A stretch of DNA of 32,000 nucleotides, taken from assembly GCF_000008465.1 (NCBI RefSeq), contig NC_006512.1, positions 1,890,001-1,922,000 on the forward strand. Direction: 5' to 3'. Each line of letters begins with the position of its first letter. The stretch's first letter is position 1. The DNA is from Idiomarina loihiensis L2TR. Lineage in GTDB: Bacteria; Pseudomonadota; Gammaproteobacteria; Enterobacterales; Alteromonadaceae. This document shows, one piece after another, positions 13,148 through 31,765 of this stretch. A program made the position numbers and the translations under genes. The notes below the pieces were generated by a model, which was given only the letters and a program-made list of their open reading frames with translations, had not been told where the DNA came from and made no database searches.

Positions 13148-13223
13148 TGGCGTCCCCTAGGGGATTTGAACCCCTGTTACCGCCGTGAAAGGGCGGTGTC
13201 CTAGGCCACTAGACGAAGGGGAC
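13148..13223 (-). tRNA. tRNA-Glu (UUC), copy 1 (D-loop variant)
   Basis: The reverse complement reads GTCCCCTTCGTCTAGTGGCCTAGGACACCGCCCTTTCACGGCGG...GGGGACGCCA, close to E. coli tRNA-Glu. The anticodon loop is CTTTCAC and the CCA end is encoded. Confidence 0.93.
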
Positions 13224-13258
13224 CCATGGAACTTAATTTAATATATGCAGAAAAGTAA

Positions 13259-13334
13259 TGGCGTCCCCTAGGGGATTTGAACCCCTGTTACCGCCGTGAA
13301 AGGGCGGTGTCCTGGACCACTAGACGAAGGGGAC
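13259..13334 (-). tRNA. tRNA-Glu (UUC), copy 2
   Basis: It is the same 76-nt gene as copy 1 except in the D-loop (GGTCCAGG versus GGCCTAGG). Confidence 0.93.
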
Positions 13335-13366
13335 GCAGAAATTACTTTTTACATTTTGTATTTGAA

Positions 13367-13442
13367 TGGCGTCCCCTAGGGGATTTGAACCCCTGTTACC
13401 GCCGTGAAAGGGCGGTGTCCTGGACCACTAGACGAAGGGGAC
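13367..13442 (-). tRNA. tRNA-Glu (UUC), copy 3
   Basis: It is identical to copy 2. Confidence 0.93.
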
Positions 13443-13489
13443 GCAACAACCAAATACTTACTGCCAAATAATGCTTTACCAAAACAACT

Positions 13490-13565
<76 letters not shown>

Positions 13566-16021: not shown

Positions 16022-16097
16022 GGTTGCTTAGCTCAGTTGGGAGAGCATCGCCCTTACAAGGCGAGGGTCACTGGTTCAAGCCCAGTAGCAACCACCA
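16022..16097 (+). tRNA. tRNA-Val (UAC), copy 1
   Basis: The sequence is GGTTGCTTAGCTCAGTTGGGAGAGCATCGCCCTTACAAGGCGAGGGTCACTGGTTCAAGCCCAGTAGCAACCACCA. It has a cloverleaf, the anticodon loop CTTACAA and an encoded CCA end. Confidence 0.93.
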
Positions 16098-16132
16098 CTT
16101 CTCTTCTTCCGTCAATTGCAGACCTTCAGGAT

Positions 16133-16208
16133 GGTTGCTTAGCTCAGTTGGGAGAGCATCGCCCTTACAAGGCGAGGGTCACTGGTTCGAGCCCAGTAGC
16201 AACCACCA
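16133..16208 (+). tRNA. tRNA-Val (UAC), copy 2
   Basis: It is the same gene with one T-loop difference (TTCGAG versus TTCAAG), and is followed by a T6 tract. Confidence 0.93.
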
Positions 16209-19231: not shown

Positions 19232-19256
19232 CACGCCGCCGACGTAGCCTGATGAG

Positions 19257-19269
19257 ATGGTCCCCTCCC
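19257..19269. repeat. Left subterminal inverted repeat (sTIR)
   Basis: ATGGTCCCCTCCC lies 9 bp inside the left end. Its perfect reverse complement is at 20616-20628. The copy-2 equivalents are at 30812-30824 and 29453-29465. Confidence 0.85.
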
Positions 19270-19337
19270 TCCTAAGCGGCATCGCAATGTGCCAATATAG
19301 AGGTTCAAGCTTCTATAGAACAGAGTGGAGAGGACCA

Positions 19338-20369
19338 ATGGCTATTGTAAACAGAATTGCCCTGGATTTGGCAAAGGATTTTATTCAGGTTTTGGCGCTG
19401 GATGAAAATGAGCAGGAAGTTTTTAATAAAAAACTGCGCAGCAATAAAGTGTTAGCGAAGCTGGCGACGCTGAGCCGTACGGATGACTGTGAAGTAGCGG
19501 TTGAGTCCTGCGGCATGAGTCATTACTGGCGCCGCGAATGTGAAAAGCTGGGTTATAAAACGGTGGCGTTGCCACCGCGTTTCGTCAAAGCGTACCTGCA
19601 GGGTGAGAAGAACGATGCGAATGACGCCCGGGCGATAGCCGAGGCGGCATCACGACCCAACCGTCAGACGGTCAGGCTGAAAAGCATTGAGCAGCAGGAC
19701 TTAGCATTGATGGTCAATCAGCGGGAAGGCTTCGTGCAGACGAGAACGCAGTTCTCGAATAGGTTGCGGGGGCAACTGGCCGAATACGGCATTCTTTTAC
19801 CGAAGCGAGTCGGTACGATATTACAGAGAGTACCGGAGGTACTGGAAGACGACAGCAATGCGCTGACGCTTCAGTCACGGGACCTCATCAACCGGCTCTA
19901 TCAGATGCTGCGAGCGGTGGATGAAGAAGTTAAAGCGCTGGATAAGCACTTAGCGACACAGGCCGAAAGGAATGAAGACAGTCAGCGGCTGATGACCCTG
20001 CCGGGTATCGGACCGATAACAGCGACCTCGCTGCTGGCACTGATAGGTGATGTGAGTGAATTTAAACGCGGCCGCAACCTGTCGGAATACCTGGGACTGG
20101 TACCACGGCAAAACAGCAGTGGCGGTAAAGACCGTTTAGGCGGTATTACCAAAAAAGGGAACACCAAACTCAGGACACTGCTGGTGCATGGCGCCCGCTC
20201 GGCACTGCGGGTGGCACAACAGCGCCACGACAGGCTGAGCCTCTGGGCACAGGATGTCGCTAAACGCAGAGGCAACAACGTTGCAGCGGTGGCACTGGCT
20301 AACAAGCACGCCCGGATAATCTGGGCGATGTTAAAGAATAAAGAAGATTACCGGATGACTGCTGCTTAA
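19338..20369 (+). CDS. IS110-family DEDD transposase/recombinase
   Basis: The 343-aa product starts at the ATG at 19338, preceded by GGAGAGG. The N-terminal RuvC-like DEDD region (IALDLAKDF..., ESCGMSHYW, NDANDA) and the C-terminal Tnp domain (LPGIGPITATSL...VPRQNSSGGK...ITKKGNTKLRTLL) are typical of the family. The upstream extension to 19257 begins inside the sTIR and is probably not translated. Confidence 0.9.
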   Translation: MAIVNRIALDLAKDFIQVLALDENEQEVFNKKLRSNKVLAKLATLSRTDDCEVAVESCGMSHYWRRECEKLGYKTVALPPRFVKAYLQGEKNDANDARAIAEAASRPNRQTVRLKSIEQQDLALMVNQREGFVQTRTQFSNRLRGQLAEYGILLPKRVGTILQRVPEVLEDDSNALTLQSRDLINRLYQMLRAVDEEVKALDKHLATQAERNEDSQRLMTLPGIGPITATSLLALIGDVSEFKRGRNLSEYLGLVPRQNSSGGKDRLGGITKKGNTKLRTLLVHGARSALRVAQQRHDRLSLWAQDVAKRRGNNVAAVALANKHARIIWAMLKNKEDYRMTAA

Positions 20370-20635
20370 CAGCATTCAGTAAAAGAGCACAGCGAAGGTT
20401 CATTCCTTCCGGGAGTTGCAAACGTCAACAGGATGGTAAAATAGGGTAAACCGACGACAACTGAGACTGTTGAACGTCCGTACATAAAGTACGTTAGCCT
20501 GATAAGCCAGTTGTCGTGCGGAGTTCATCCAGGCCAGGTGCGCAAAGCGCGCACCATAAACAGGCCGTATATATGCGAGCGCCCCGACATTTACCACGAG
20601 TTGCCGTTGCAAAACGGGAGGGGACCATATATGAC
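20370..20635 (+). ncRNA. Candidate IS-encoded guide RNA (seekRNA / bridge RNA) in the 3' non-coding region
   Basis: This 266-nt stretch between the transposase stop and the IS end is non-coding and identical in both copies. It contains a 13-bp stem (20451-20463 / 20508-20521, with G20518 bulged) enclosing two internal loops and an apical hairpin. It also contains a second stem-loop module (20532-20566) and a GCAA-tetraloop hairpin (20604-20617). It carries short matches to the IS ends and to the copy-1 target. The exact RNA ends are unknown. Confidence 0.55.
20616..20628. repeat. Right subterminal inverted repeat (sTIR)
   Basis: GGGAGGGGACCAT lies 7 bp inside the right end and is the reverse complement of 19257-19269. 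Confidence 0.85.
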
Positions 20636-20642
20636 ATTTATG

Positions 20643-20677
20643 TCAGGTGAGATATCTCCCCTGATGTGAACATCAGG
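20643..20677. other. Overlapping inverted repeats between convergent fghA and the MCP gene
   Basis: There is an imperfect 22-bp palindrome, tcaggtgagatatctcccctga (20643-20664). It overlaps the hairpin cctgatg-tgaa-catcagg (20660-20677), which abuts the MCP stop. Neither has a clear U-tract, so a terminator function is uncertain. Confidence 0.4.
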
Positions 20678-22516
20678 CTACACGCGGAATTTGATAACCG
20701 CCTGGCGTAATTGCTCTGTTTGATTGCGAACCTGAGCAACGGCATCGGCATTTGACTGCGCATCATTCGCTGCTTCCACACCGGCATCCCGCACACGGGT
20801 TATATTTCTGGCGGTTTCATCCACAACCGCCGATTGTTCTTCAACTGCCGTCGCGATAGATGCCGAACGGTCGTTAATTTTTAAAAGCTCCATATGGATG
20901 CGATTAAATAACTCATCGGACTCCGATGAATGCTGAGCACTCTCCTCACCCAGTTCATTACACTCCTGCAATGTGGTGACAATAATCTGCGTCTGCTGGT
21001 TCAACTGGCTGGTAATAGACTCAATTTCACCAATAGATTTTTGCGTGCGTGAAGCCAGTGTCCGGACTTCATCAGCAACAACAGCGAAACCACGCCCCTG
21101 CTCACCAGCTCGGGCAGCCTCAATAGCCGCATTCAGTGCCAGTAAATTGGTTTGCTCTGCAATACCATTTATAACCGTCACTATTTGTGTAATTGAAGCA
21201 CTGCGTTCCGCTAAGGTATTTGCTTCGCTCACACTACTGTTTAAACGCTCTGCCAGATACCGAACCTTTTCAACGCCAGCTTGTACTGAAGTACTGCCAT
21301 GCTTAGCCTGATCGGACAAACTGTTCACCTGCTCGGCAGTGTCTTCTGCATCATTCGCAATAGTATGAGCAGTGCTGCCCATCTCATTGATAGCGGCTGC
21401 AACCTGATCAACTTCGTGCGATTGCATATCCAGATTCTCAGACGTATGAGTGACGGTATCCGACACCTGCTGGGTTAACCCGTTAACCGTCTCAACTGAC
21501 TCATTAATTTGCTTAATAACGTTACGGAAGTATCTCAGAAGTTCATTAAAGCTATCGACTAAATCACCTAATTCATCACTACGGAACTTTTCTGATACCA
21601 GAGTTAAGTCATTGCTACTCTGGACTTTTTTCATGTCTTCGCGTAACTGAGTTAGCGGCTGATTAATGGAGCGAACAACCCAGAACAGCATGGCTACAAC
21701 AATAAATGCAATTGCTGCAAAAACCACAATAGGAACCCATTTCATGGTTGCCTGACGTGACTGAAGCAACTCATTTAGATTCTCATCTAACTCAGCTAAC
21801 GAACTCTCCATATTACCGGCAATAATTCTGACTTCACCTTTAATGCCGGACTCTTCATCCAGGCCAATTTCTTTCGACAAGCTGGCATAACGGCCAAAGT
21901 CACGACGATAAGCGTCAACTTTGGAAGCCAGATTCGGCGATGCCGATAGCTCGGCTTTCAACTCATCCAGTAAATTGTTAACTCGGCCGAGGTATTTGTC
22001 GTCAAAACGCAGCATAAAGTCTTTTTCGCTACGGCGTATCTGCAACAGAGTTACCAACAATTCGGTTCGGTTGGCTGTATCAATAGCTTCTTCCAGCTCA
22101 TGCGTCGCCGCCCGCAGCGCGCCATAGGCCGCACTATTTTCATCCAGTCCTCGTTGCTTAAACGCAGCAACTAAACTATTAAAATTTTCTTCATATTTTG
22201 AAACCTGCTCAGCAAGACCATCAATAAGTCGCGTAGAGCCCTCATCAGCAACCAGTTGGTTAAGCTGTTCTAACCTTTCAATCGTTACACTAACTTCTTG
22301 CTGTAGTTTATCCGCGTAACTTTCATCCATTCGCAAAAGGAAATCTTTTTCGGCACGACGCACTTGTAACAAACCGTTATGTACAGATTCCCGCAATTCA
22401 CTGGCGCGATGCAGCTGACTAATTTGAGACTGAAAAAACATCATCAGCATTAGTAGTATGATAAAAGCAGCCGTTGTTACCGCACCGACAGAGAGAAGTT
22501 TATTGCGAATTGACAT
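20678..22516 (-). CDS. Methyl-accepting chemotaxis protein
   Basis: The 612-aa ORF has an N-terminal TM segment, a helical periplasmic region with an internally repeated motif, a second TM segment and a HAMP domain. The signalling domain is highly conserved ([35 protein letters not shown]). Confidence 0.9.
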
Positions 22517-22703
22517 AAGGTAAGCCCATGTTTAGAAACTGGCGAAATAATAGTCATTGAACAAATGTTCTGCAATGATCTATTTTGTTAACAACTTTAG
22601 CTAAGCGACACGCTATGTCAAAGTAAGAGGTATCACTTACTGGGTAAATACCCTTATTTCAGAACCAGTTATAATCGCACCAAGCTCAAAACAGGATGCA
22701 GTA

Positions 22704-23984
22704 ATGAAAGTTAATTCGGCAATACAAGCGTTATCAATTCTGAACGATGGAGATGTTATTTGGTGTCAGTCGATGGCGGCCACTCCCTACAAATTATTAG
22801 AGGGTCTGAAGGAAGTTGCCAAACAGCGTGTAAACTTAACGCTATTGCAATTGCATACGGAATACAGCGAAGCTTTAGGTGACCCGGAATTAAACGGGCA
22901 TCTCAGGCAACGAGCATTTTTTGTCGGAGCATCAACCCGCCAGGCCGTTAATCAGGGTCTGGCCGACTACGTTCCTATTTTCCTGTCTGAAATTCCAAAG
23001 CTGTTTCGTTCAGGCGAACAACCGCTGGACGCAGCTATTATTCAGGTATCGCCGCCAGATAAACACGGTAACTGCAGTTTAGGTATCTCGGTAGAAGCAA
23101 CGCGAGCCGCCCTGCAAGTTGCAAAGAAGGTTATAGCCTGGATAAATCCGAATATGCCACGCACCCATGGCGATGCACTGGTTCAACTTAAGCGCTTCGA
23201 TCGCTATTTTGAAGAAGCGGCACCGATTCCCGAGCATAAGCAACCGCAACAGAACCCTATTACTCAGAAAATTGGTGAGCAAGTTGCCGGGCTCATTAAC
23301 GACGGTGACTGTTTACAGATGGGCATTGGAGCGATACCCGATGCGACTCTGGCTTGTCTGCATCATCATAAAGACTTAGGTATTCATACCGAAATGTTTT
23401 CAGATGGTGTGCTGCCTTTAGTTGAGCGTGGCGTTATTAATAACAGTCGCAAGCGTAAACACCGAGGACGCATTGTCACCACCTTTGCGATGGGATCTCA
23501 GGCATTATATGACTTTGTAGATGACAACCCGGAAGTGTTTTTCCTTGATGTTGAATACACTAACGACACGTCCGTTATTCGCCAAAATAAACAGGTTATG
23601 TCTATTAACAGCGCACTGCAGGTTGATTTAAGCGGTCAGGTTTGCGCCGACTCAATCGGTACCCGTATTTATTCCGGCGTTGGTGGGCAAATGGATTTTG
23701 TTCGCGGCGCCAGCTTATCCGAAGGTGGTCGCTCAGTGATTGCGCTACCGTCAACGGCTTGTGGCGGAAGCGTTTCCCGCATCAGTTCTCTGCTGGAACC
23801 GGGAGCCGGAGTCGTAACAACTCGCGCGCACGTTCATTACATTGTGACCGAGCATGGTATCGCGAATTTACGAGCCAAAAGCATGAGTGAACGCGCACGG
23901 GAGCTTATCCACATAGCCGACCCTAAATTCCGTGAAGAACTGGCTAAAGCGGCCTACGACGACTGGGGTCTGAACATAAGCTAG
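22704..23984 (+). CDS. Acetyl-CoA hydrolase/transferase family protein (4-hydroxybutyrate CoA-transferase-like)
   Basis: The 426-aa ORF has GIGAIPDA and SGVGGQMDF motifs typical of this family. Confidence 0.8.
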   Translation: MKVNSAIQALSILNDGDVIWCQSMAATPYKLLEGLKEVAKQRVNLTLLQLHTEYSEALGDPELNGHLRQRAFFVGASTRQAVNQGLADYVPIFLSEIPKLFRSGEQPLDAAIIQVSPPDKHGNCSLGISVEATRAALQVAKKVIAWINPNMPRTHGDALVQLKRFDRYFEEAAPIPEHKQPQQNPITQKIGEQVAGLINDGDCLQMGIGAIPDATLACLHHHKDLGIHTEMFSDGVLPLVERGVINNSRKRKHRGRIVTTFAMGSQALYDFVDDNPEVFFLDVEYTNDTSVIRQNKQVMSINSALQVDLSGQVCADSIGTRIYSGVGGQMDFVRGASLSEGGRSVIALPSTACGGSVSRISSLLEPGAGVVTTRAHVHYIVTEHGIANLRAKSMSERARELIHIADPKFREELAKAAYDDWGLNIS

Positions 23985-24030
23985 ACTGTTTTCATCTAAT
24001 ATCGCCGTTAACTTAACGTCCAAACTGCGC

Positions 24031-24052
24031 TAGGCTATTTTTAAATAGCCTA
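24031..24052 (+). terminator. Terminator-like hairpin after the CoA-transferase gene
   Basis: The perfect inverted repeat taggctattt / aaatagccta is followed by TTG. The U-tract is weak. Confidence 0.35.
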
Positions 24053-24071
24053 TTGCGGAGCGGAGGTCTTA

Positions 24072-24761
24072 ATGAAAACAGTCGGCATTATTGGTGGCAT
24101 GAGCTGGGAATCAACCAGCACTTACTACCGACGCCTGAACCAGCTAGTCAATGAACGACTTGGTGGCCTGCATAGCGCAGAGCTCCTGCTTGCCAGCGTT
24201 GACTTTGCGCCTATTGAAAAAATGCAAAGTCAGGGCGACTGGGACGCAGCCGCGCAGGCTCTTATCGGTAAAGCCAGACAACTTGAGTCCGCGGGAGCCG
24301 AATGCATTGTTATAGCGACAAATACAATGCATAAAGTGGCACCTCAGATTGAAACCGCTGTAACCATACCCTTACTGCATATTGTTGACGCGGTAGCCGC
24401 TCATCTCAAACAAAATAGTGTCCATAACGTTGGGCTGCTTGGTACCCGTTTCACCATGCAGCAACCTTTCTATAAAGAGCGCCTGGAACAAAACAATGTA
24501 CAGGTTCTGGTCCCCGAGGAAGAGGACAGCATTACCGTCGACAGCATCATTTTTAAAGAACTTTGTCACGGCCAGTTCACTGAAAAAGCCAGGGAGCATT
24601 ATCTTCGCGTTATTGATTCGCTAGCCGAACGGGGTGCACAAGGTGTTATTCTGGGATGCACAGAAATAGGTTTACTGGTTCAGCAGGAGCATTCGGCTTT
24701 GCCATTATTCGATACCACGGAACTGCACTGCCGGGCTATTGCCGACTGGATGTTGAAATAA
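24072..24761 (+). CDS. Aspartate/glutamate racemase family protein (YgeA-like)
   Basis: The 229-aa ORF starts GIIGGMSWESTSTYY and has the two catalytic Cys/Thr contexts (IATNTMH, LGCTEIG). Confidence 0.8.
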   Translation: MKTVGIIGGMSWESTSTYYRRLNQLVNERLGGLHSAELLLASVDFAPIEKMQSQGDWDAAAQALIGKARQLESAGAECIVIATNTMHKVAPQIETAVTIPLLHIVDAVAAHLKQNSVHNVGLLGTRFTMQQPFYKERLEQNNVQVLVPEEEDSITVDSIIFKELCHGQFTEKAREHYLRVIDSLAERGAQGVILGCTEIGLLVQQEHSALPLFDTTELHCRAIADWMLK

Positions 24762-24774
24762 CAGCAGGTTAACC

Positions 24775-25458
24775 ATGACAGACCTAACCACAGACTTTTC
24801 TCAATTTTATGAGCGCGCTTGTCAACGCAAAGGCGGCGAAAACGCTATGCTTTCACGCATGCCAAAAGTTACACCTGCAAGCGAGCTGAAACAGCTGGAT
24901 GACCGGGTCATTTTATCAACCATTACCCGTTGTATTTTCCGCGCCGGTTTTGTCTGGCGCATTATTGAAGCGAAGTGGCCGGGTTTTGAAGAAGCCTTTA
25001 AAGGCTTTGTGCCTCTTTACTGGCAACAAGTGCCCCCAGAAGTCTTAGAGGCACTTTCCAAAGATGAACGTATTGTCCGCAACCAGCAAAAAATAAACAC
25101 CGTGCCCGCTAACGCACGAATGATTGTGGAAGTAGCCGAAGAATACGGCAGTTTTGGTCAGTTTCTGGCTCAATGGCCATCGAGCCAACAAGCGGAGTTG
25201 TTGCATTATCTTAAAAAGAACGGTTCGCGATTAGGCGGCGTTACCCCACAGTATGTTTTGCGCGAGCTTGGCTGGGACGGTTTTATTCTTTCCAATGATG
25301 TTATCACCGCGTTGACCAACTACAAGCTGATAGACGCTTCTCCCACCAGTCAAAAAGGGTTAAAACAAGCTCAAAGTGCGTTTAACCACTGGCATCAGCA
25401 GACCCAGTTACCTTACAGTCATTTGTCGCGAATTCTGTCTTACAGCGTAGGAGAATAG
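24775..25458 (+). CDS. DNA-3-methyladenine glycosylase I (Tag)-like family protein
   Basis: The 227-aa ORF has a central region collinear with E. coli Tag blocks: AGF.W..I..KW..FEEAF..F and RIVRNQQKI..V..NA. It lacks the terminal Cys/His zinc-snap residues. Confidence 0.55.
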   Translation: MTDLTTDFSQFYERACQRKGGENAMLSRMPKVTPASELKQLDDRVILSTITRCIFRAGFVWRIIEAKWPGFEEAFKGFVPLYWQQVPPEVLEALSKDERIVRNQQKINTVPANARMIVEVAEEYGSFGQFLAQWPSSQQAELLHYLKKNGSRLGGVTPQYVLRELGWDGFILSNDVITALTNYKLIDASPTSQKGLKQAQSAFNHWHQQTQLPYSHLSRILSYSVGE

Positions 25459-25496
25459 ACGCTCGTCAATCTCTTGTCAGGTTAAATATAAAGCAA

Positions 25497-25525
25497 TTGA
25501 AGCACTTAGCTATTAAAGGTATATT
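25497..25525 (+). promoter_or_regulatory. Candidate sigma70 promoter for the OMP gene
   Basis: TTGAAG (25497-25502), a 17-nt spacer and TATATT (25520-25525) lie about 30 nt upstream of the AAGGAGAG Shine-Dalgarno. Confidence 0.4.
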
Positions 25526-25554
25526 GCCCGCTTTTCTCAACCAAGGAGAGACTT

Positions 25555-26172
25555 ATGAGAAAAGCTGTTATCGCATTGGCAATGCTGACCTTACCTGGCG
25601 CAGTTCTAGCTGAGACCCCTAACTGGAATAAAGTTGATGCGTCCTATCTTGATACCGATGTTGGCGTTGACGGAGCTGGCGATCTTTCTTTCGACGGATT
25701 CAGAGTCGGCGGTTCGGCCGCTATTAATCCGGACCTCGTCGTTTTAGATAACCTTTTCGTATTTGCAGATTTCGACTCTGTCTCCAATGACGACTCAGGT
25801 TTCGATTTAGATATCGACTTTCTGTCAGCAGGTATCGGTTCATATAAGCACTTAACTAACACCACTGATTTATACTCGACAGTATCGTTTGAACGAGCAA
25901 AATTTTCAGGTTCTGGCCAGGGACTGTCGACATCGGCATCCGAGAATGCCTGGGGTGTTGGAGTCGGACTTCGCTCTATGATAGCTCCAAAAGTTGAGGT
26001 CGATGCTAAGGTGGACTATATCGCGTTTGACGAAGATACTTTTCGCTTTAGTGTATCTGCTTTCTATCACGCGACAGCAAACCTGTCGTTTGGTCTTGGC
26101 TATGAGACATACGGTGAAGTCCAGTACCTCGATGTTGATAGCCTAAGTGCTACCGTACGCTATTCATTTTAA
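25555..26172 (+). CDS. Outer-membrane beta-barrel protein (small porin/OmpA-like barrel family)
   Basis: The 205-aa ORF has a signal peptide (ALAMLTLPGAVLA-ET), an alternating amphipathic strand pattern and a C-terminal aromatic signature (VRYSF). Confidence 0.75.
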   Translation: MRKAVIALAMLTLPGAVLAETPNWNKVDASYLDTDVGVDGAGDLSFDGFRVGGSAAINPDLVVLDNLFVFADFDSVSNDDSGFDLDIDFLSAGIGSYKHLTNTTDLYSTVSFERAKFSGSGQGLSTSASENAWGVGVGLRSMIAPKVEVDAKVDYIAFDEDTFRFSVSAFYHATANLSFGLGYETYGEVQYLDVDSLSATVRYSF

Positions 26173-26193
26173 TAAACTTAACTATGCTTTCCC

Positions 26194-26217
26194 CCCTGCT
26201 GCTAACCCGCAGCAGGG
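26194..26217 (+). terminator. Hairpin downstream of the OMP gene
   Basis: A 9-bp stem, ccctgctgc / gcagcaggg, has loop taaccc and lies 22 nt after the stop. There is no strong U-tract. Confidence 0.4.
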
Positions 26218-26329
26218 CCAAATTAAACTCTGGATAAATTCCCTTCTATCGCCTATAAATAGTTGAGTGTACGCACACATTAACTCCCGTTGCCATAAGC
26301 CACTCTTTCTAAAAACTATGGGGATTTTG

Positions 26330-27043
26330 ATGAACTCAACTAAGAATACTCTGATAATAAGCATTTCTCTTATCATCAGCTTCGCGATCGTTAGCATTAT
26401 CGGTTCAAATGCAGTGCTTGAGCACAAGTCTATGGAGCGCAGTGTGACCGTAAAAGGGTTATCCGAACGAGAATATCTTGCCGACACAGTTATCTGGCCT
26501 ATTCAATTTACCGCGGCAAGCAACGATTTATCAGAAATTTATGAAACTATGGAAGCCTCCAATAAAAAGGTCATCGCCTTCTTACGGGAGAAAGGCATTG
26601 AGACGGACGAAATATCCTCATCTGCCCCTTCCATTACAGACAAATCTGCACAGCGTTACGGCTCTTCTCAACCCGCAGAATTTCGTTATACCGCCACACA
26701 AGCTATTACTGTCTATTCCAGTAACGTAGAGCAGGTTCGCAGTGTCATGGGAGACCTTGCCGAGCTGGGTAAAGAGGGGATTGTTCTCAGCAGCGACGAT
26801 TATCAGGCGCAACCTGAATACTTATTTACCCGGTTGAATGAGGTAAAGCCCGAAATGATAGAAGAGGCCACTAAGAAAGCCCGGGAAGTAGCAGAAAAAT
26901 TTGCGACAGACTCGAACTCTCAGTTGGGTAAAATCAAACAGGCACGTCAGGGGCAGTTTAGTATCAGTGCTCGCGACCGACACAATCCTCATCTGAAAAA
27001 TGTGCGGGTTGTATCCACCATAGAATATTACTTGTCCGATTGA
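26330..27043 (+). CDS. SIMPL (DUF541) domain protein
   Basis: The ORF has an N-terminal TM/signal anchor and a SIMPL-like body. It ends with a motif that resembles the family's conserved C-terminus (VRVVSTIEYYL). I prefer the ATG at 26330 over the GTG at 26267, with the ATG at 26318 as another alternative. Confidence 0.7.
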   Translation: MNSTKNTLIISISLIISFAIVSIIGSNAVLEHKSMERSVTVKGLSEREYLADTVIWPIQFTAASNDLSEIYETMEASNKKVIAFLREKGIETDEISSSAPSITDKSAQRYGSSQPAEFRYTATQAITVYSSNVEQVRSVMGDLAELGKEGIVLSSDDYQAQPEYLFTRLNEVKPEMIEEATKKAREVAEKFATDSNSQLGKIKQARQGQFSISARDRHNPHLKNVRVVSTIEYYLSD

Positions 27044-27094
27044 TTTATTCGTTTCACAATGCGGCTAACTCTTTGCCAAAAGGCTTATTAAATA

Positions 27095-27700
27095 ATGAAA
27101 AGAACGCTGCAGTATTTGTTTAAAGGGTTAGCCATTTTACTGCCCATTGTTGTGACCTTTGCGTTACTGCAATGGCTGCTAGTTACCATCGAAAATTGGC
27201 TTAAGCCTATATGGATAACCTTACTGGGTGAGTCTTCCTATTTTCCGGGGCTCGCCTTTATTAGCTTTTTAGCTATTGCTTTGCTTATTGGTTTTAGCTC
27301 CCGCTGGAATTTCATTGATTCTCTCTGGCAGCTTCCCGGAAAACTTATCAACCGGCTGCCACTGCTGCGCAGTCTTTACGGTACCATTAACGATGTCTTT
27401 GAAATGATGTCGGGCAAAAACTTCGCTGAAGAATCTGTTGTATTAGTCACACTTCCCGGCAGCAAACTGCGGCTTATTGGTATTGTCACCAAGAAAAGCG
27501 GAATTAAGGGTGACCGCCTGTCGGAATTGATGAAAGATGACCAGGTGGCGGTATTTTTGCCCATGAGTTATAACGTCGGCGGCTATATGGTCATTGTGCC
27601 GGCGGATTGTATCGAGTCACTGACTATGAAACCTGCCGATGCCCTGCAGCTGACAATAAGTGGGGGCCTGGGCAAAAATCACTCCGGCAAAACAGATTAA
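27095..27700 (+). CDS. DUF502 family membrane protein
   Basis: The 201-aa ORF has two N-terminal TM helices and a conserved core (G.V.....G...VFLP.S.N...GY...VP). Confidence 0.7.
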   Translation: MKRTLQYLFKGLAILLPIVVTFALLQWLLVTIENWLKPIWITLLGESSYFPGLAFISFLAIALLIGFSSRWNFIDSLWQLPGKLINRLPLLRSLYGTINDVFEMMSGKNFAEESVVLVTLPGSKLRLIGIVTKKSGIKGDRLSELMKDDQVAVFLPMSYNVGGYMVIVPADCIESLTMKPADALQLTISGGLGKNHSGKTD

Positions 27701-27744
27701 AAACTGCAGTTGAAATCAGCGCGCGTGCTGGTAAAGTTCGCGCT

Positions 27745-28122
27745 ATGAAACTATCTGAACCCTGCCCTTGCGGCCTCGATAAAACCTATCAACATTGTTG
27801 CTATCCATATCATAATGGAGAATCACTTGCGTCATCGCCTGAAGCCTTAATGCGTTCACGCTACAGTGCCTTTGTCGGACGCTTAGCAGGCTACTTAGAA
27901 GCAACATGGCATAGCAGCTACCGCCCCGCCTTTCTCGATTTAAGCGACTCACCAAACTGGCTTAAATTGCAGGTTATTTCTTCCAGCGTAGATCAGAATA
28001 AAGGGCAGGTGCATTTCCGCGCATTTTATCGCGACGGAGATGATATTGCTTTTATGGAAGAAAAATCTGATTTTATTTTCGAAGACGGCAAATGGTATTA
28101 CTTAACCGGCCAGACAACTTAA
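27745..28122 (+). CDS. ychJ: YchJ-family protein (UPF0225, SEC-C motif)
   Basis: The 125-aa product starts at the ATG at 27745 and begins MKLSEPCPCG...YQHCC (SEC-C metal-binding motif). The upstream extension in the track starts at a TTG and overlaps the DUF502 gene. Confidence 0.8.
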   Translation: MKLSEPCPCGLDKTYQHCCYPYHNGESLASSPEALMRSRYSAFVGRLAGYLEATWHSSYRPAFLDLSDSPNWLKLQVISSSVDQNKGQVHFRAFYRDGDDIAFMEEKSDFIFEDGKWYYLTGQTT

Positions 28123-29445
28123 GACAGCTGCTGACCGGTTTTATCTAAAAATACCAGACCGTGGGTTTTAACATGCTTCTCATAACGAGTTACTGTTAAC
28201 GGCTTAGAAAAGTAAAAACCCTGAAACTCTGAAAAGCCAATTTCGGTTAATCTTGTTAACTGAGACTTTTCTTCTACACCTTCAACGACACATTTAATTT
28301 TCAATTCAGAGCAAATATTAAAAATGCCCTTAACTAAGCTGTATTGTCGCCCGGATGTTTTTATGCCACGAAGCAGCGCTCTGTCCAGTTTTAACTTATC
28401 AATCGGGTAATAAGCCAAGCGGGTAACACTGGAATAGCCGACTCCAAAGTCATCAACCGATACCTTAAAGCCCCAGGACTTCAATTCATTCATAAGCTCT
28501 AATGAGTTGACCCTGTCCGACTCCAGACAGGTTTCTGTTAACTCCAGCTCTATCTGTGAAGGTTTAACCGAAAAATCGGCCAGATATTTGACCAGCTTCG
28601 AAATAAAATCGGGCTGAGAAAAGTCAAGCAGTGAAATGTTGATGGCTACGGGTAACAGCGGAAAATCATTTTTCTTCCACAGCGATATTTGAGCACAGAC
28701 TTTCTGAACAATTAAGTCGGTTAAACGACTTATCATTCGGTACTCTTCTGCAATTGGAATAAAAATAGCCGGAGAAATGGAACCCAGTACAGGGCTGTCC
28801 CAGCGGGCAAGTGCTTCAAGCCCGACACAAGTGCCATCGGCAGTCACTTTCGGTTGAAAACAAACATCCAACTCGTCGTTCTGTATGGCTTCATCCAAAA
28901 GAATTGAGATTTCATGGCGTTCCATAAACTCTTCCGAGTTTTCAGTATCATAAAGATGATAAAACTGGTTCACAGAAGCAAACTTCTTTGCTTCCAACGC
29001 ACGGGAAACAACAACGTCGGCGGTTTCACCATGCTTAGGAAACCTGGCCACACCGAACTGAAAAGACTGCTGACATTTAATACCCTGAAAGGTGTATTCT
29101 TTATCGAGAGAGTTTTTAATATCCAGTAAAACGTCTTTTAATTCGTTCTCTACCGTCTTTGGCAAAATAAACACCAGCTTATTTAACGCAATAGTCGCAG
29201 TTAAGCGCGGATGCTGCCGGTGCTTCTTCAACCGGCTGTATGAAGACGCTAAAAGTCTTCTGATAACACTTTCACCATACTTTAACCTGAGGTAGTCCTC
29301 GCTTTCACTTTGTGCAACAACCACAAAGAATTCACGATCTGACTTAGAAATTAATTTATTGCATTGCAACTCAAACCAGTCGCTGTTCGGCAAGTTTGTC
29401 TGAGTATCCAGGTAACGCAAACGGCGGTTTTCCTGCTCTAAGAAC
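28119..29445 (-). pseudogene. C-terminal fragment (degenerate GGDEF + EAL) of an IS-disrupted c-di-GMP signalling gene
   Basis: EAL-domain motifs are intact (QPKV, ELELTE, DDFGVGYSS, EGVE, QGFYFSKP). The preceding GGDEF-like domain has SESED in place of GGDEF. The first 41 codons of the track ORF come from the IS right end. Confidence 0.85.
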
Positions 29446-29711
29446 GTCATATATGGTCCCCTCCCGTTTTGCAACGGCAACTCGTGGTAAATGTCGGGGC
29501 GCTCGCATATATACGGCCTGTTTATGGTGCGCGCTTTGCGCACCTGGCCTGGATGAACTCCGCACGACAACTGGCTTATCAGGCTAACGTACTTTATGTA
29601 CGGACGTTCAACAGTCTCAGTTGTCGTCGGTTTACCCTATTTTACCATCCTGTTGACGTTTGCAACTCCCGGAAGGAATGAACCTTCGCTGTGCTCTTTT
29701 ACTGAATGCTG
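29446..29711 (-). ncRNA. Candidate seekRNA/bridge RNA, copy 2
   Basis: It is identical to the reverse complement of 20370-20635. Confidence 0.55.
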
Positions 29712-30743
29712 TTAAGCAGCAGTCATCCGGTAATCTTCTTTATTCTTTAACATCGCCCAGATTATCCGGGCGTGCTTGTTAGCCAGTGCCACCGCTGCAA
29801 CGTTGTTGCCTCTGCGTTTAGCGACATCCTGTGCCCAGAGGCTCAGCCTGTCGTGGCGCTGTTGTGCCACCCGCAGTGCCGAGCGGGCGCCATGCACCAG
29901 CAGTGTCCTGAGTTTGGTGTTCCCTTTTTTGGTAATACCGCCTAAACGGTCTTTACCGCCACTGCTGTTTTGCCGTGGTACCAGTCCCAGGTATTCCGAC
30001 AGGTTGCGGCCGCGTTTAAATTCACTCACATCACCTATCAGTGCCAGCAGCGAGGTCGCTGTTATCGGTCCGATACCCGGCAGGGTCATCAGCCGCTGAC
30101 TGTCTTCATTCCTTTCGGCCTGTGTCGCTAAGTGCTTATCCAGCGCTTTAACTTCTTCATCCACCGCTCGCAGCATCTGATAGAGCCGGTTGATGAGGTC
30201 CCGTGACTGAAGCGTCAGCGCATTGCTGTCGTCTTCCAGTACCTCCGGTACTCTCTGTAATATCGTACCGACTCGCTTCGGTAAAAGAATGCCGTATTCG
30301 GCCAGTTGCCCCCGCAACCTATTCGAGAACTGCGTTCTCGTCTGCACGAAGCCTTCCCGCTGATTGACCATCAATGCTAAGTCCTGCTGCTCAATGCTTT
30401 TCAGCCTGACCGTCTGACGGTTGGGTCGTGATGCCGCCTCGGCTATTGCCCGGGCGTCATTCGCATCGTTCTTCTCACCCTGCAGGTACGCTTTGACGAA
30501 ACGCGGTGGCAACGCCACCGTTTTATAACCCAGCTTTTCACATTCGCGGCGCCAGTAATGACTCATGCCGCAGGACTCAACCGCTACTTCACAGTCATCC
30601 GTACGGCTCAGCGTCGCCAGCTTCGCTAACACTTTATTGCTGCGCAGTTTTTTATTAAAAACTTCCTGCTCATTTTCATCCAGCGCCAAAACCTGAATAA
30701 AATCCTTTGCCAAATCCAGGGCAATTCTGTTTACAATAGCCAT
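29712..30743 (-). CDS. IS110-family DEDD transposase/recombinase, copy 2
   Basis: The protein is identical to the copy-1 transposase. Confidence 0.9.
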   Translation of the reverse strand: MAIVNRIALDLAKDFIQVLALDENEQEVFNKKLRSNKVLAKLATLSRTDDCEVAVESCGMSHYWRRECEKLGYKTVALPPRFVKAYLQGEKNDANDARAIAEAASRPNRQTVRLKSIEQQDLALMVNQREGFVQTRTQFSNRLRGQLAEYGILLPKRVGTILQRVPEVLEDDSNALTLQSRDLINRLYQMLRAVDEEVKALDKHLATQAERNEDSQRLMTLPGIGPITATSLLALIGDVSEFKRGRNLSEYLGLVPRQNSSGGKDRLGGITKKGNTKLRTLLVHGARSALRVAQQRHDRLSLWAQDVAKRRGNNVAAVALANKHARIIWAMLKNKEDYRMTAA

Positions 30744-30833
30744 TGGTCCTCTCCACTCTGTTCTATAGAAGCTTGAACCTCTATATTGGCACATTGCGAT
30801 GCCGCTTAGGAGGGAGGGGACCATCTCATCAGG

Positions 30834-31765
30834 TTACTCTCCAGCGTTTTCTCTTGTGTGCAATCGACAAATTCATAAACATAAGAGCTGGCTTCCGGAA
30901 CTTCTAATCTGACAACTTGTTGGTATGTATGCTCATGACGGATAATCTTGCCACCCGTGGGTAATTTGGCATGATTAATATCGGGAAACCAGTTAGAAAT
31001 AGACTGACAACCACTTCTCGTCGACTCATCTAAACCAAAAATATCACCGGCCTGTTTATTAAAATCTGTAATTAACCCGTCTTCATTAACAATAACTTTG
31101 GGTCTTCTCGACTCGGCAAAAAACACCCGGTAAAGCGAGTTCTTACCTTTTAAGTAATCGTTAGACTTTTGAGTTTCCTGATTCAGACGTTTTGCAGCGA
31201 CTATTGTACGAGCCACTGCGAGAGGAATACAGATGTTAAAAAACAGAAAAATAAGTCCCAAAATATATAGAGACGCATCAGGTAACTGTTCGTTAATTCC
31301 TGTCAATTCTGATAAGTCGATATCGTTAAGAATAATATAAAACGGCACAATATTAAGAATGCCGTAGAATAATGCAGCACGTCCACCTAAAAGCATCAAC
31401 GCTATAAGTGGTGAAGCATACATAAACATTGAGCTAACTTGTGCAAGGCTCAAGTCGACTAATAAAAGATTACAGGACAAACTCGCGGCAATAATCATGA
31501 CATGCAGAGAATGAGCACAAAAATGATAGTATCGAGTACTTAACCAAAATAGGGTCAGCATCACTCCCAAAAATGTGGAGGTAACGCCTATAGTGAAAAT
31601 TAAATGCAACTCTAATAAAGGGACAAGCGTATCAATAAAAACAGCTAATGAAAGGAAAGCTCCCGAGAAAAGAATAATTCTTAGTGCGCTGACTCGCCAA
31701 TTGGGAACACCATTTTCTGACGTTCCTTCGTCTTTAAGCAGAAAAAAGTTATTTAAGAAGTTCAT
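30834..31765 (-). pseudogene. N-terminal fragment (multi-TM sensor + PAS-like region) of the IS-disrupted GGDEF/EAL gene
   Basis: There are about 7 hydrophobic helices followed by a PAS-like segment (VIVNEDGLITDFNKQAGDIFGL...). The reading frame runs 8 codons plus a stop into the IS left end. Confidence 0.8.

What the first reader, a model, noticed from the sequence alone, without database searches (positions are those of the whole stretch)
19248..20635. IS1111-type IS110-family element whose architecture predicts an RNA-guided (bridge RNA / seekRNA) recombination system
Seen in the sequence:
- The 1388-bp element has a DEDD/Tnp-domain recombinase.
- Only about 90 bp of non-coding DNA lies 5' of the gene, but 266 bp lies 3' of it.
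- 13-bp subterminal inverted repeats (ATGGTCCCCTCCC / GGGAGGGGACCAT) sit 9 and 7 bp inside the ends.
- Neither copy has a target-site duplication.

Established knowledge: IS110/IS1111 recombinases use a structured RNA encoded in the long non-coding end. That end is upstream in the IS110 group and downstream in the IS1111 group. The RNA base-pairs with both the target DNA and the IS ends (the bridge RNA and seekRNA work published in 2024). The sTIRs plus a downstream non-coding region are the IS1111-group signature.

Inference: this element should carry such a programmable guide RNA. The window holds two independent insertion sites that could be used to decode it.
Basis: partly seen in the sequence, partly recalled or inferred. 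Interest (0 to 1): 0.85.

Follow-up and report, generated by a model that had tools for sequence, protein, structure and literature searches.

The report
IS1111-type insertion sequence with guide RNA
This is a small jumping gene of a known kind (IS1111 group) that carries, after its recombinase gene, a folded RNA whose short loops spell out the DNA site it inserts into; it is a clear new example, not a new mechanism.

Summary
The finding holds. The window has two inverted, near-identical copies of an IS1111-group insertion sequence from an Idiomarina-like host. True ends are 19250-20631 (+) and 29450-30831 (-), 1382 bp, not 1388. This gives the family's 7-bp and 3-bp extensions beyond 13-bp sub-terminal inverted repeats.

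The gene encodes a 343-aa DEDD recombinase. The 262-bp 3' non-coding region encodes a structured RNA of about 197 nt (20416-20612). Across 81 distinct relatives, 93.6% of its pairs hold, against 26-37% for slid controls.

I decoded four guide segments:
- RTG: AACGUC, 20473-78.
- LTG: UAGCCUG, 20495-501.
- LDG: AUAUAUG, 20569-75.
- RDG (weaker): UUCAUC, 20524-29.

They match the target (GTAGCC-TG-ACGTT, the 5' arm of a REP-like hairpin) and the IS ends. They change together with the flanks in relatives. One identical recombinase is found with three different guide sets.

The order (top-strand match before bottom-strand match) is as published for IS1111 seekRNAs. My model also finds the same RNA in IS4321, and its loops read out the known Tn21 inverted-repeat target.

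Expression of the RNA was not testable. Verdict: new member of a known kind, of modest interest.

The parts
19250..20631 (+). Copy 1 of the insertion sequence proper (1382 bp, shared TG counted at the left end)
   Evidence: The limits come from comparing the two copies, 20 related insertion sites and reconstruction of the REP hairpin. They give the IS1111 7-bp/3-bp terminal extensions (PMC11187229).
29450..30831 (-). Copy 2 of the same element, inverted; it interrupts a GGDEF-EAL gene
   Evidence: Removing the 1382 bp restores a 754-aa ORF with EAL (1.9e-64) and GGDEF (5.5e-07) domains.
19244..19249 (+). Left target flank (LT) GTAGCC of copy 1
   Evidence: Its last five bases TAGCC (19245-19249) are identical to the LT-matching part of the LTG loop. 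The equivalent flank in relatives changes together with their LTG.
19250..19256 (+). 7-bp left extension TG-ATGAG: the shared dinucleotide TG plus the left-end bases read by the candidate RDG
   Evidence: Geometry is conserved in 80 relatives. TG (or CG) is repeated at the right junction.
19257..19269 (+). Left sub-terminal inverted repeat ATGGTCCCCTCCC
   Evidence: Perfect 13-bp inverted repeat with 20616-20628; conserved across the family.
19338..20369 (+). Recombinase (transposase) gene, 343 aa
   Evidence: Pfam PF01548 and PF02371. D10, E56, D93, D96 and GLvPRQnSSGG (S260/S261-G262) are invariant in alignment A1.
20394..20409 (+). Small hairpin GAAGG-UUCAUU-CCUUC just after the stop codon
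   Evidence: Present with loop-proximal compensatory changes in L015, L016 and L025. Its role is unknown.
20416..20612 (+). Whole structured guide RNA unit (bridge RNA / long seekRNA), closed by the outer stem 20416-20429 with 20600-20612
   Evidence: The outer stem is 79.9% paired against 29-43% for slid controls. All consensus pairs are standard in this copy.
20429..20588 (+). Core of the RNA as matched by covariance model R1
   Evidence: 106.5 bits, E 1e-31. The only other strong hit in the window is copy 2 at 29493-29652 (-).
20452..20520 (+). Target-binding arm: long stem (20452-61 with 20510-20), 2-bp stem (20467-68 with 20505-06) and hairpin 20479-20493
   Evidence: In the long stem, 8 of 10 pairs show changes on both sides and 95% of cells are paired.
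20473..20478 (+). Right-target guide (RTG, 'T' match) AACGUC; pairs with top strand G-ACGTT. It extends to GAACGUC for copy 2.
   Evidence: Antiparallel covariation of the loop columns with RT+1 to RT+7. Idiomarina alleles AAACGUC, GAAUGUC, AUAGCGUC and AUAGCCUC fit their own flanks.
20495..20501 (+). Left-target guide (LTG, 'B' match) UAGCCUG, identical to LT plus TG; it is followed by AU, which matches the first bases of the IS
   Evidence: Column-by-column identity of 0.87-0.98 with LT-5 to the first shared base, z 7-11. There were 0 mismatches in 13 of 17 close relatives.
20432..20436 (+). GAUGG, 5' strand of helix H1; it resembles the IS left end
   Evidence: H1 is 98.8% paired across 81 sequences, with G-C, G-U and A-U alternation at its outer pair.
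20524..20529 (+). UUCAUC: 3' strand of H1 and candidate right-donor guide (RDG), complementary to left-end G-ATGAG
   Evidence: Column 144 is complementary to left-end position +4 in 61/61 elements. Column 143, outside H1, is complementary to +5 in 43/61, against 30.7 expected. L027 has AUUACAUC with left end GATGTAAT.
20532..20566 (+). Donor-side hairpin (GGCC:GGCC stem enclosing GGUGCGC-AAAGC-GCGCACC)
   Evidence: Both stems covary (helices 5 and 6).
20569..20575 (+). Left-donor guide (LDG) AUAUAUG, identical to right end ATATA plus TG
   Evidence: The shared-base column matches the element's own shared base in 98% of cases, against 67% expected. Relatives carry UAUAUACG with CG, AUAGAUU in IS4321 and AUACAA in the Alteromonas IS.
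20607..20612 (+). TTGCAA, the -35 half of a promoter that exists only when the ends are joined (TTGCAA-17 nt-TATGAT)
   Evidence: Joined-end reconstruction in 80 elements gives -35 TTGCAA, and -10 TACAAT, TATGAT or TATAAT. The integrated copy has no sigma-70-like promoter.
20616..20631 (+). Right sub-terminal inverted repeat GGGAGGGGACCAT plus the 3-bp extension ATA
20632..20647 (+). Target copy of TG plus right target flank (RT) ACATTTATGTCAGG, the rest of the interrupted REP-like hairpin
   Evidence: It has one A·C mismatch to the RTG.
20660..20681 (-). Second, unoccupied REP-like hairpin carrying a near-perfect target GTAGCC-TG-ATGTT

Best explanation
The element is an active or recently active IS1111-group insertion sequence.

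**Inferred from experiments on family members** (ISEc11, ISPa11, ISKpn4, ISPst6, IS621). The DEDD/serine recombinase binds an RNA transcribed from the 3' non-coding region.

**Shown here.** That region has a conserved fold with two guide-bearing parts.
- Target-binding arm: the 5' loop strand (AACGUC) is complementary to the top strand of the right target half (G-ACGTT). The 3' loop strand (UAGCCUG) is identical to the left target half plus the shared TG, so it can pair with the bottom strand.
- Donor side, set in a multi-branch loop: AUAUAUG repeats the right IS end plus TG. UUCAUC is complementary to the left IS end G-ATGAG.

**Target.** The preferred target is GTAGCC-TG-ACGTT, the 5' arm of a REP-like hairpin of Idiomarina. 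The element inserts in one orientation, without duplication, by exchange at the shared TG.

**Inferred from sequence.** Excision joins the ends and creates a promoter, TTGCAA-17-TATGAT. This promoter would drive the recombinase gene and, by read-through, the RNA.
For: **Element and recombinase**
- Two copies differ by one synonymous SNP and the ORF is intact.
- Pfam DEDD_Tnp_IS110 and Transposase_20 both hit, and the catalytic D-E-D-D and GLxPxxxxSG residues are invariant.
- It aligns full-length with the IS4321 family transposase (187 bits). The match to IS621 is only 40 bits.
- With corrected ends, the sTIRs have 7-bp and 3-bp extensions, as stated for the family in PMC11187229.

**RNA structure**
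- On a plain MAFFT alignment, 91.2% of cells are paired and 22 of 31 pairs change on both sides. Slid controls give 27-36%, and 0 of 500 shuffles reach the observed values.
- On 81 distinct sequences, 93.6% are paired, with 354 cells changed on both sides.
- G·U pairs outnumber A·C pairs 123 to 34, which fits an RNA of the sense strand.
- The covariance model hits only the two copies in the window.

**Guides**
- Exact matches of at least 6 nt to the element's own target occur in 71% of LTG windows and 52% of RTG windows. Mismatched element-target pairs give 7% and 6%.
- Per-column diagonals confirm the register.
- The identical protein P0003 occurs with three LTG / shared-dinucleotide / LDG sets.

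**Positive control and promoter**
- The same scheme applied to IS4321 reads out the Tn21 inverted repeat.
- The joined-end promoter is conserved in 80 elements.
- The order of the two target matches is as published for IS1111 seekRNAs (PMC11187229).
Against: - No transcript, 5' end or 3' end was observed, and no promoter-like site lies inside the integrated copy.
- The candidate RDG overlaps the 3' strand of helix H1. Its outer position follows the RNA partner rather than the left end: 20 of 52 elements with A in the donor have C there. The RDG reading is therefore only partly supported.
- Each window copy has one mismatch to the guides (copy 1 in RT, copy 2 in LT).
- Shuffle controls do not remove shared ancestry. 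Donor-side covariation rests on few independent changes.
- In this copy the unconstrained fold prefers GGUAAAAU:AUUUACC over H1 (-69.5 against -60.8 kcal/mol).
Confidence: 0.9

Rival explanations
1. The matching segments act as DNA, not RNA. The 3' end would carry single-stranded-DNA guide sequences that pair with the target during transposition, as in IS200/IS605-type elements. The conserved fold would then be a DNA structure.
For: Sequence comparison alone shows only that one strand is folded and that loop bases match the flanks. No transcript was observed, and no internal promoter was found.
Against: - The paired columns tolerate G·U far more than A·C (123 to 34), as expected for RNA of the sense strand.
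- The recombinase belongs to the family for which RNA co-purification and trans-complementation by the RNA were shown (PMC11187229, PMC11208160).
- The fold is shared with IS4321.
Confidence: 0.04
2. The conserved 3' structure is a cis-regulatory or end-recognition element, for example a recombinase binding site or a control of tnp expression. The matches to the flanks would arise because the element has copied part of its REP target.
For: - The target is a repeated palindrome.
- An unrelated 8-nt match to it (AAACGTCA, 20420-27) occurs by chance in the outer stem.
- The H1 5' strand resembles the left end.
Against: - A captured target copy would not split into one strand-identical and one complementary segment on either side of a hairpin.
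- It would not keep that register across elements with unrelated, non-REP targets, such as IS4321 in the Tn21 inverted repeat and the 61 metagenome elements.
- The guide alleles change while the protein stays identical.
Confidence: 0.04
3. The element is a decayed relic. The structure and matches are inherited, but this copy no longer moves.
For: Each copy sits at a site with one mismatch to the guides. A near-perfect free target 30 bp away is unoccupied.
Against: - Two copies differ by a single synonymous base.
- The ORF, catalytic residues, sTIRs and all helices are intact.
- Copy 2 disrupts a gene that is otherwise intact, so the insertion is recent.
Confidence: 0.02

Closest known systems
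IS1111-group elements with experimentally shown seekRNAs (ISEc11, ISPa11, ISKpn4, ISPst6; Siddiquee et al. 2024, PMC11187229)
   Same: - 343-aa DEDD recombinase.
- 13-bp sTIRs with 7-bp and 3-bp extensions.
- Long 3' non-coding region and no duplication.
- The top-strand-complementary segment lies 5' of the bottom-strand one, and the two overlap in the target.
- A promoter forms at the joined ends.
- Like ISPa11, it targets a REP-type palindrome.
   Different: - Different host genus (Idiomarina) and a different target sequence.
- The element is not named in the papers or supplements I could search.
- Its RNA has not been observed.
[quoted passage not shown]
   Same: - The recombinase aligns over 97% of its length at 35% identity.
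- The covariance model built here hits the IS4321 3' NCR at 58 bits.
- The loops decode by the same rule to its known target.
   Different: - The guides are unrelated: UAUUUUC, AAAACGGAA and AUAGAUU.
- The shared bases are TT rather than TG.
- The right extension is AGA rather than ATA.
IS621 bridge RNA system (IS110 group; Durrant et al. 2024, PMC11208160; structures 8WT6-9)
   Same: The logic is the same: one RNA has a target-binding loop and donor-binding nucleotides, each reading both strands around a shared core dinucleotide.
   Different: - In IS621 the RNA is in the left (5') end and the guide order is reversed.
- In IS621 the donor guides sit in a simple internal loop rather than a multi-branch loop.
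- IS621 has no long sTIRs.
- Protein similarity is only 40 bits.
REP-targeting IS110-family elements of Pseudomonas (ISPpu9, ISPpu10, ISPa11)
   Same: Orientation-specific insertion into repeated extragenic palindromes. ISPpu9 carries a small RNA gene downstream of tnp (PMC12288879, abstract seen).
   Different: No extra RNA copies without a recombinase gene were found here; the model hits only the two IS copies. I did not compare sequences with these elements.

Membership tests
IS1111 group of the IS110 family | DEDD (RuvC-like) N-terminal domain plus PF02371 C-terminal domain, with a conserved GL-P----S(t)G motif | tested here: met
   Pfam hits 8e-20 and 1.8e-26. D10, E56, D93, D96 and GLVPRQNSSGG are invariant in A1.
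IS1111 group of the IS110 family | Transposase of 330-350 aa related over its full length to IS1111-group transposases | tested here: met
   343 aa. 35% identity over 97% of the length to the IS4321 family transposase, 187 bits. Only 40 bits to IS621, mostly in the C-terminal domain. No tree was built.
IS1111 group of the IS110 family | Sub-terminal inverted repeats of about 11-13 bp, perfect or nearly so | tested here: met
   13/13 bp, at 19257-19269 and 20616-20628.
IS1111 group of the IS110 family | Terminal extensions of 7 bp (left) and 3 bp (right) beyond the repeats | tested here: met
TGATGAG and ATA after the boundary correction.
IS1111 group of the IS110 family | The longer non-coding region lies downstream of tnp | tested here: met
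   262 bp at the 3' end against 88 bp at the 5' end.
IS1111 group of the IS110 family | Site- and orientation-specific insertion with no target-site duplication | tested here: met
   Twenty insertion sites of close relatives share (T)GTAGnn-YG plus a hairpin, in one orientation. An ORF is restored by removing 1382 bp.
IS1111 group of the IS110 family | A circular intermediate whose joined ends form a promoter | not testable with these tools
   Sequence only: the joined ends would read TTGCAA-17-TATGAT, a pattern conserved in 80 elements. The circle itself was not observed.
Bridge RNA / seekRNA | Conserved secondary structure in the long non-coding end, supported by compensatory changes | tested here: met
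   91-94% of cells paired, 22 of 31 pairs changed on both sides, and 0/500 shuffles reaching the observed values.
Bridge RNA / seekRNA | Two loop segments that match both strands of the target, overlap at the insertion point, and covary with the target | tested here: met
   The order T then B is as in IS1111 seekRNAs (PMC11187229).
Bridge RNA / seekRNA | Segments that match the donor (the IS ends) around the same core | tested here: inconclusive
   The LDG is well supported: its shared-base column matches in 98% against 67% expected, and it varies with the right extension in IS4321 and the Alteromonas IS. The RDG overlaps helix H1 and is only partly supported.
Bridge RNA / seekRNA | Match to published covariance models of the family | not testable with these tools
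   Rfam 15 has no such family, and nothing in the element reaches E<=1. A model built here links the RNA to IS4321 and IS1618.
Bridge RNA / seekRNA | The RNA is made, binds the recombinase and is required for transposition | not testable with these tools
   Needs RNA sequencing, co-purification and complementation assays.

The most novel reading that the evidence does not exclude
The RNA carries an internal look-alike of the IS left end: GAUGG at 20432-36, against left end GATGAG/AATGGG. This segment pairs with the very nucleotides that can read the left end (helix H1).

The donor guide may therefore be masked in the free RNA and released only on donor binding. That would be a built-in switch ordering target and donor capture in IS1111-type systems.

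In addition, Idiomarina holds a natural series in which one identical recombinase works with at least three guide / shared-dinucleotide sets.
Probability: 0.2. Interest if true: 0.5.

Novelty: new member of a known kind. Interest (0 to 1): 0.3.

Why it matters
The finding adds a fully decoded IS1111-group element to the few whose guides and target are known. Its ends, shared dinucleotide, target, four guide segments and RNA fold are all defined.

It also gives natural evidence for programmability. Guide alleles differ among copies whose recombinases are 95-100% identical, and in one case exactly identical. The shared dinucleotide changes in step in the target, the LTG and the LDG.

For genome annotation, it shows that comparing two copies can misplace IS1111 ends by a few bases when the targets are alike. 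It also explains one gene disruption (a GGDEF-EAL gene) and a pair of inverted repeats that could invert 8.8 kb of this chromosome.

It does not change the understanding of the mechanism.

Tried and rejected
1. **Rfam.** A search at gathering score and at E<=10 found no bridge-RNA family and no meaningful hit in the element.
2. **First guess for the RTG.** AAACGTCA (20420-27) is an 8-nt complement of TGACGTTT. I rejected it because it lies in the outer stem and does not change when the target changes (CUAACUUC in L015/L016). The true RTG is 50 nt further on.
3. **Plain minimum-energy fold of the whole 3' region**. It pairs the sTIR with the post-stop hairpin and misses H1, and comparison with relatives does not support it.
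4. **RNAalifold register for the top of the long stem, plus a 2-bp GG/CC hairpin**. I replaced it with a contiguous register with one bulged G, which also fits this copy.
5. **A strict 2-nt core in all relatives.** In the 42-50% relatives the second position is A in the donor and G in the target, so only the first base is always shared. In this element and its close relatives both bases are shared.
6. **Handshake-type extension of the LDG into the right target.** No signal.
7. **RNA upstream of tnp in L028.** It turned out to be the tail of a second IS 95 bp away.
8. **Search for a published name.** Supplements of both 2024 papers and a full-text search gave nothing.
9. **Weak model hit at 21416-21494** (11.8 bits, E 0.011). 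It lies inside the chemotaxis-receptor gene and I treat it as chance.
Full report
**What is there.** The window holds two inverted copies of one element, 8.8 kb apart. They are identical from 19248 to 20635 (+) and from 29446 to 30833 (-), except for one base (19634 G/A, third codon position, Ala in both). The only long ORF with support is 19338-20369, 343 aa, preceded by GGAGAGGA. It hits Pfam DEDD_Tnp_IS110 (8e-20) and Transposase_20 (1.8e-26). Perfect 13-bp inverted repeats lie at 19257-19269 and 20616-20628.

**Where the element ends.** Copies of the same element (95-97% protein identity) occur in Idiomarina abyssalis, I. zobellii and I. piscisalsi. Relatives at 88%, 83% and 52% came from metagenome contigs.
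- The right flanks are hairpins of the type TGACGT-TT-ACGTCAGG followed by TGAGAT. The left flanks end in (T)GTAGCC.
- Putting the two flanks of copy 1 together gives GTAG-CCTGACAT-TT-ATGTCAGG-TGAGAT, a perfect REP-like hairpin. A second, inverted hairpin of the same kind follows at 20660-20681.
- In the 83% relatives the bases just outside the conserved ends differ (GTAGCT-TG, GTAGGT-CG, GTAACT-TG), and they differ together with loop bases of the RNA.
- Hence CC (19248-49) and AC (20634-35) are target, and TG occurs once in the target and once in the element.

The element proper is 19250-20631 (1382 bp). Copy 2 is 29450-30831. This gives 7 bp (TGATGAG) and 3 bp (ATA) beyond the repeats, which are the lengths stated for the IS1111 family in PMC11187229. 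Removing copy 2 restores a 754-aa ORF with GGDEF and EAL domains, so no bases were duplicated. This test alone cannot tell 1382 from 1388 bp, because both keep the frame.

**Which family.**
- D10, E56, D93 and D96, and the motif GLVPRQNSSGG, are invariant in an alignment with relatives down to 46% identity.
- The protein aligns over 97% of its length with the IS4321 family transposase (35% identity, 187 bits). It also matches IS1618.
- The best solved structure, IS621 of the IS110 group, reaches only 40 bits, mostly in the C-terminal domain.
- With the long sTIRs, the 7/3 geometry, the downstream non-coding region, the lack of duplication and the single orientation at a specific site, all sequence-level criteria of the IS1111 group are met.

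I did not build a tree.

**The RNA fold.** Rfam 15 has no model for these RNAs and gave nothing. I therefore collected 80 further relatives (42-50% protein identity) from metagenomes. All have the same end geometry. I then aligned the 3' regions.

A hand-drawn structure of 31 pairs in six helices was tested on the plain MAFFT alignment.

| Measure | Plain alignment | 81 distinct sequences aligned to model R1 |
|---|---|---|
| Cells paired | 91.2% | 93.6% |
| Same, partners slid 1-3 columns | 27-36% | 26-37% |
| Pairs changed on both sides | 22 of 31 | 22 of 31 |
| Cells changed on both sides | 172 | 354 |
| Shuffles reaching the observed values | 0/500 | 0/500 |

- The second alignment is fitted to the model and leans towards it, but the unfitted one already gave the same answer.
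- An outer stem that closes the whole unit is 79.9% paired, against 29-43% for slid controls.
- G·U pairs outnumber A·C pairs 123 to 34, as expected if the sense strand is the folded one.
- In the window the model hits only 20429-20588 (+) and 29493-29652 (-), at 106.5 bits each.
- In this copy every consensus pair is a standard pair.

**The guides.** The arm 20452-20520 is a long stem that opens into a loop with a hairpin (20479-20493) in the middle.

*Left-target guide (LTG).* The 3' loop strand reads UAGCCUG (20495-20501). This is the left flank TAGCC plus TG, so it can pair with the bottom strand.
- Relatives carry UAGCUUG, UAGGUCG, UAACUUG and UAGCCCG. Each equals its own flank.
- In 61 elements the six columns match LT-5 to the first shared base in 87-98% of cases, against 27-65% expected (z 7-11).

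*Right-target guide (RTG).* The 5' loop strand reads AACGUC (20473-78), complementary to the top strand G-ACGTT.
- Idiomarina copies carry AAACGUC, GAAUGUC, AUAGCGUC and AUAGCCUC, which fit GACGTTT, GACATTC, GACGTTAT and GATGCTAT.
- The columns form an antiparallel diagonal with RT+1 to RT+7.

*Permutation test over 69 elements.*

| Guide window | Exact match of at least 6 nt to own target | Same for mismatched element-target pairs |
|---|---|---|
| LTG | 71% | 7% |
| RTG | 52% | 6% |

The order (top-strand match first) and the overlap of the two matches are as published for IS1111 seekRNAs. Copy 1 has one A·C mismatch in the right half. Copy 2 has one mismatch in the left half (GTAACC) and a perfect 7-nt right half.

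**The donor side.**
- *Left-donor guide (LDG).* After the second hairpin (20532-20566) comes AUAUAUG (20569-75), the right end ATATA plus TG. Relatives whose shared base is C have AUAUACG. The column agrees with the element's own shared base in 98% of cases, against 67% expected. IS4321, with right extension AGA, has AUAGAU. An Alteromonas plasmid IS, with ACA, has AUACAA.
- *Candidate right-donor guide (RDG).* UUCAUC (20524-29) is complementary to the left end G-ATGAG. One position is complementary to the left end in 61/61 elements. The next position, which is not in any helix, is complementary in 43/61, against 30.7 expected. The 52% relative has AUUACAUC with left end GATGTAAT.
- *Conflict with H1.* The same nucleotides form helix H1 with GAUGG (20432-36), and the outermost position follows the RNA partner, not the left end. 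I therefore call the RDG probable, not shown.

The donor nucleotides sit in a multi-branch loop, as Durrant et al. describe for many IS1111 orthologues.

**Positive control.** Model R1 finds the 3' non-coding region of IS4321 (58 bits), IS1618 (45.7) and an Alteromonas plasmid IS (95.7). Read by the same rule, the IS4321 loops give UAUUUUC and AAAACGGAA. Together these spell TATTTT-CCGTTTT, the known insertion point in the Tn21-family inverted repeat. That repeat is also seen at the junctions of this plasmid copy.

**Expression.** No sigma-70-like promoter lies in the integrated copy. Joining the ends would create TTGCAA-17 nt-TATGAT. The same arrangement is found in 80 relatives: -35 TTGCAA, and -10 TACAAT in 56, TATGAT in 14 and TATAAT in 5. 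This matches the junction promoter reported for ISEc11. That the RNA is made by read-through from this promoter is an inference.

**Verdict.** The element is a new, fully decodable member of a known kind. The mechanism is the published one, so the surprise is small.

Two points go a little beyond the expected:
- One identical recombinase (P0003) occurs with three guide sets.
- Helix H1 makes the RNA carry a look-alike of the IS left end.

Noticed in passing
window 20660-20681 (minus strand): An unoccupied second REP-like hairpin lies 30 bp from copy 1. It carries GTAGCC-TG-ATGTT: a perfect LTG match, and an RTG match with one G·T wobble. It is at least as good a target as the occupied site.
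   Followed up: partly
window 28119-31765 (minus strand): Copy 2 splits a 754-aa GGDEF-EAL signalling gene. The site is not a hairpin and has one mismatch to the LTG, so it is an off-target insertion that inactivates a gene.
   Followed up: yes
window 19250-30831: The two copies are inverted repeats of 1.4 kb flanking 8.8 kb. Homologous recombination between them could invert that segment.
   Followed up: no
window 13151-13565 (-) and 16022-16205 (+): Tandem tRNA gene arrays: four tRNA genes and two tRNA genes, in repeats of 108-111 bp spacing.
   Followed up: no
L015-L024 (contigs encoding protein P0003): Exactly the same 343-aa recombinase occurs with three sets of LTG, shared dinucleotide and LDG: UAGGUCG/CG/UAUAUACG, UAGCUUG/TG and UAACUUG/TG. 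Each sits in the matching REP variant.
   Followed up: yes
window 20432-20436 with 20525-20529: Helix H1 pairs GAUGG, which resembles the IS left end, with the nucleotides that can also read the left end. This is possibly a mask or switch for donor binding.
   Followed up: partly
L029-L107 (42-50% relatives): The second base at the exchange point is A in the donor but G in the target in 49 of 69 elements, so only one base is strictly shared there. The A completes the -10 hexamer TACAAT of the joined ends.
   Followed up: partly
L028 296-700: Two related IS lie 95 bp apart. The RNA hit upstream of the tnp gene belongs to the end of the first one.
   Followed up: yes
window 20420-20427: AAACGTCA is an exact complement of the target TGACGTTT, but it lies in the outer stem and does not covary with targets in relatives. 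It is probably chance.
   Followed up: yes
window 20394-20409: A small conserved hairpin GAAGG-loop-CCUUC lies right after the tnp stop codon, with compensatory changes near the loop in relatives. Its function is unknown.
   Followed up: no
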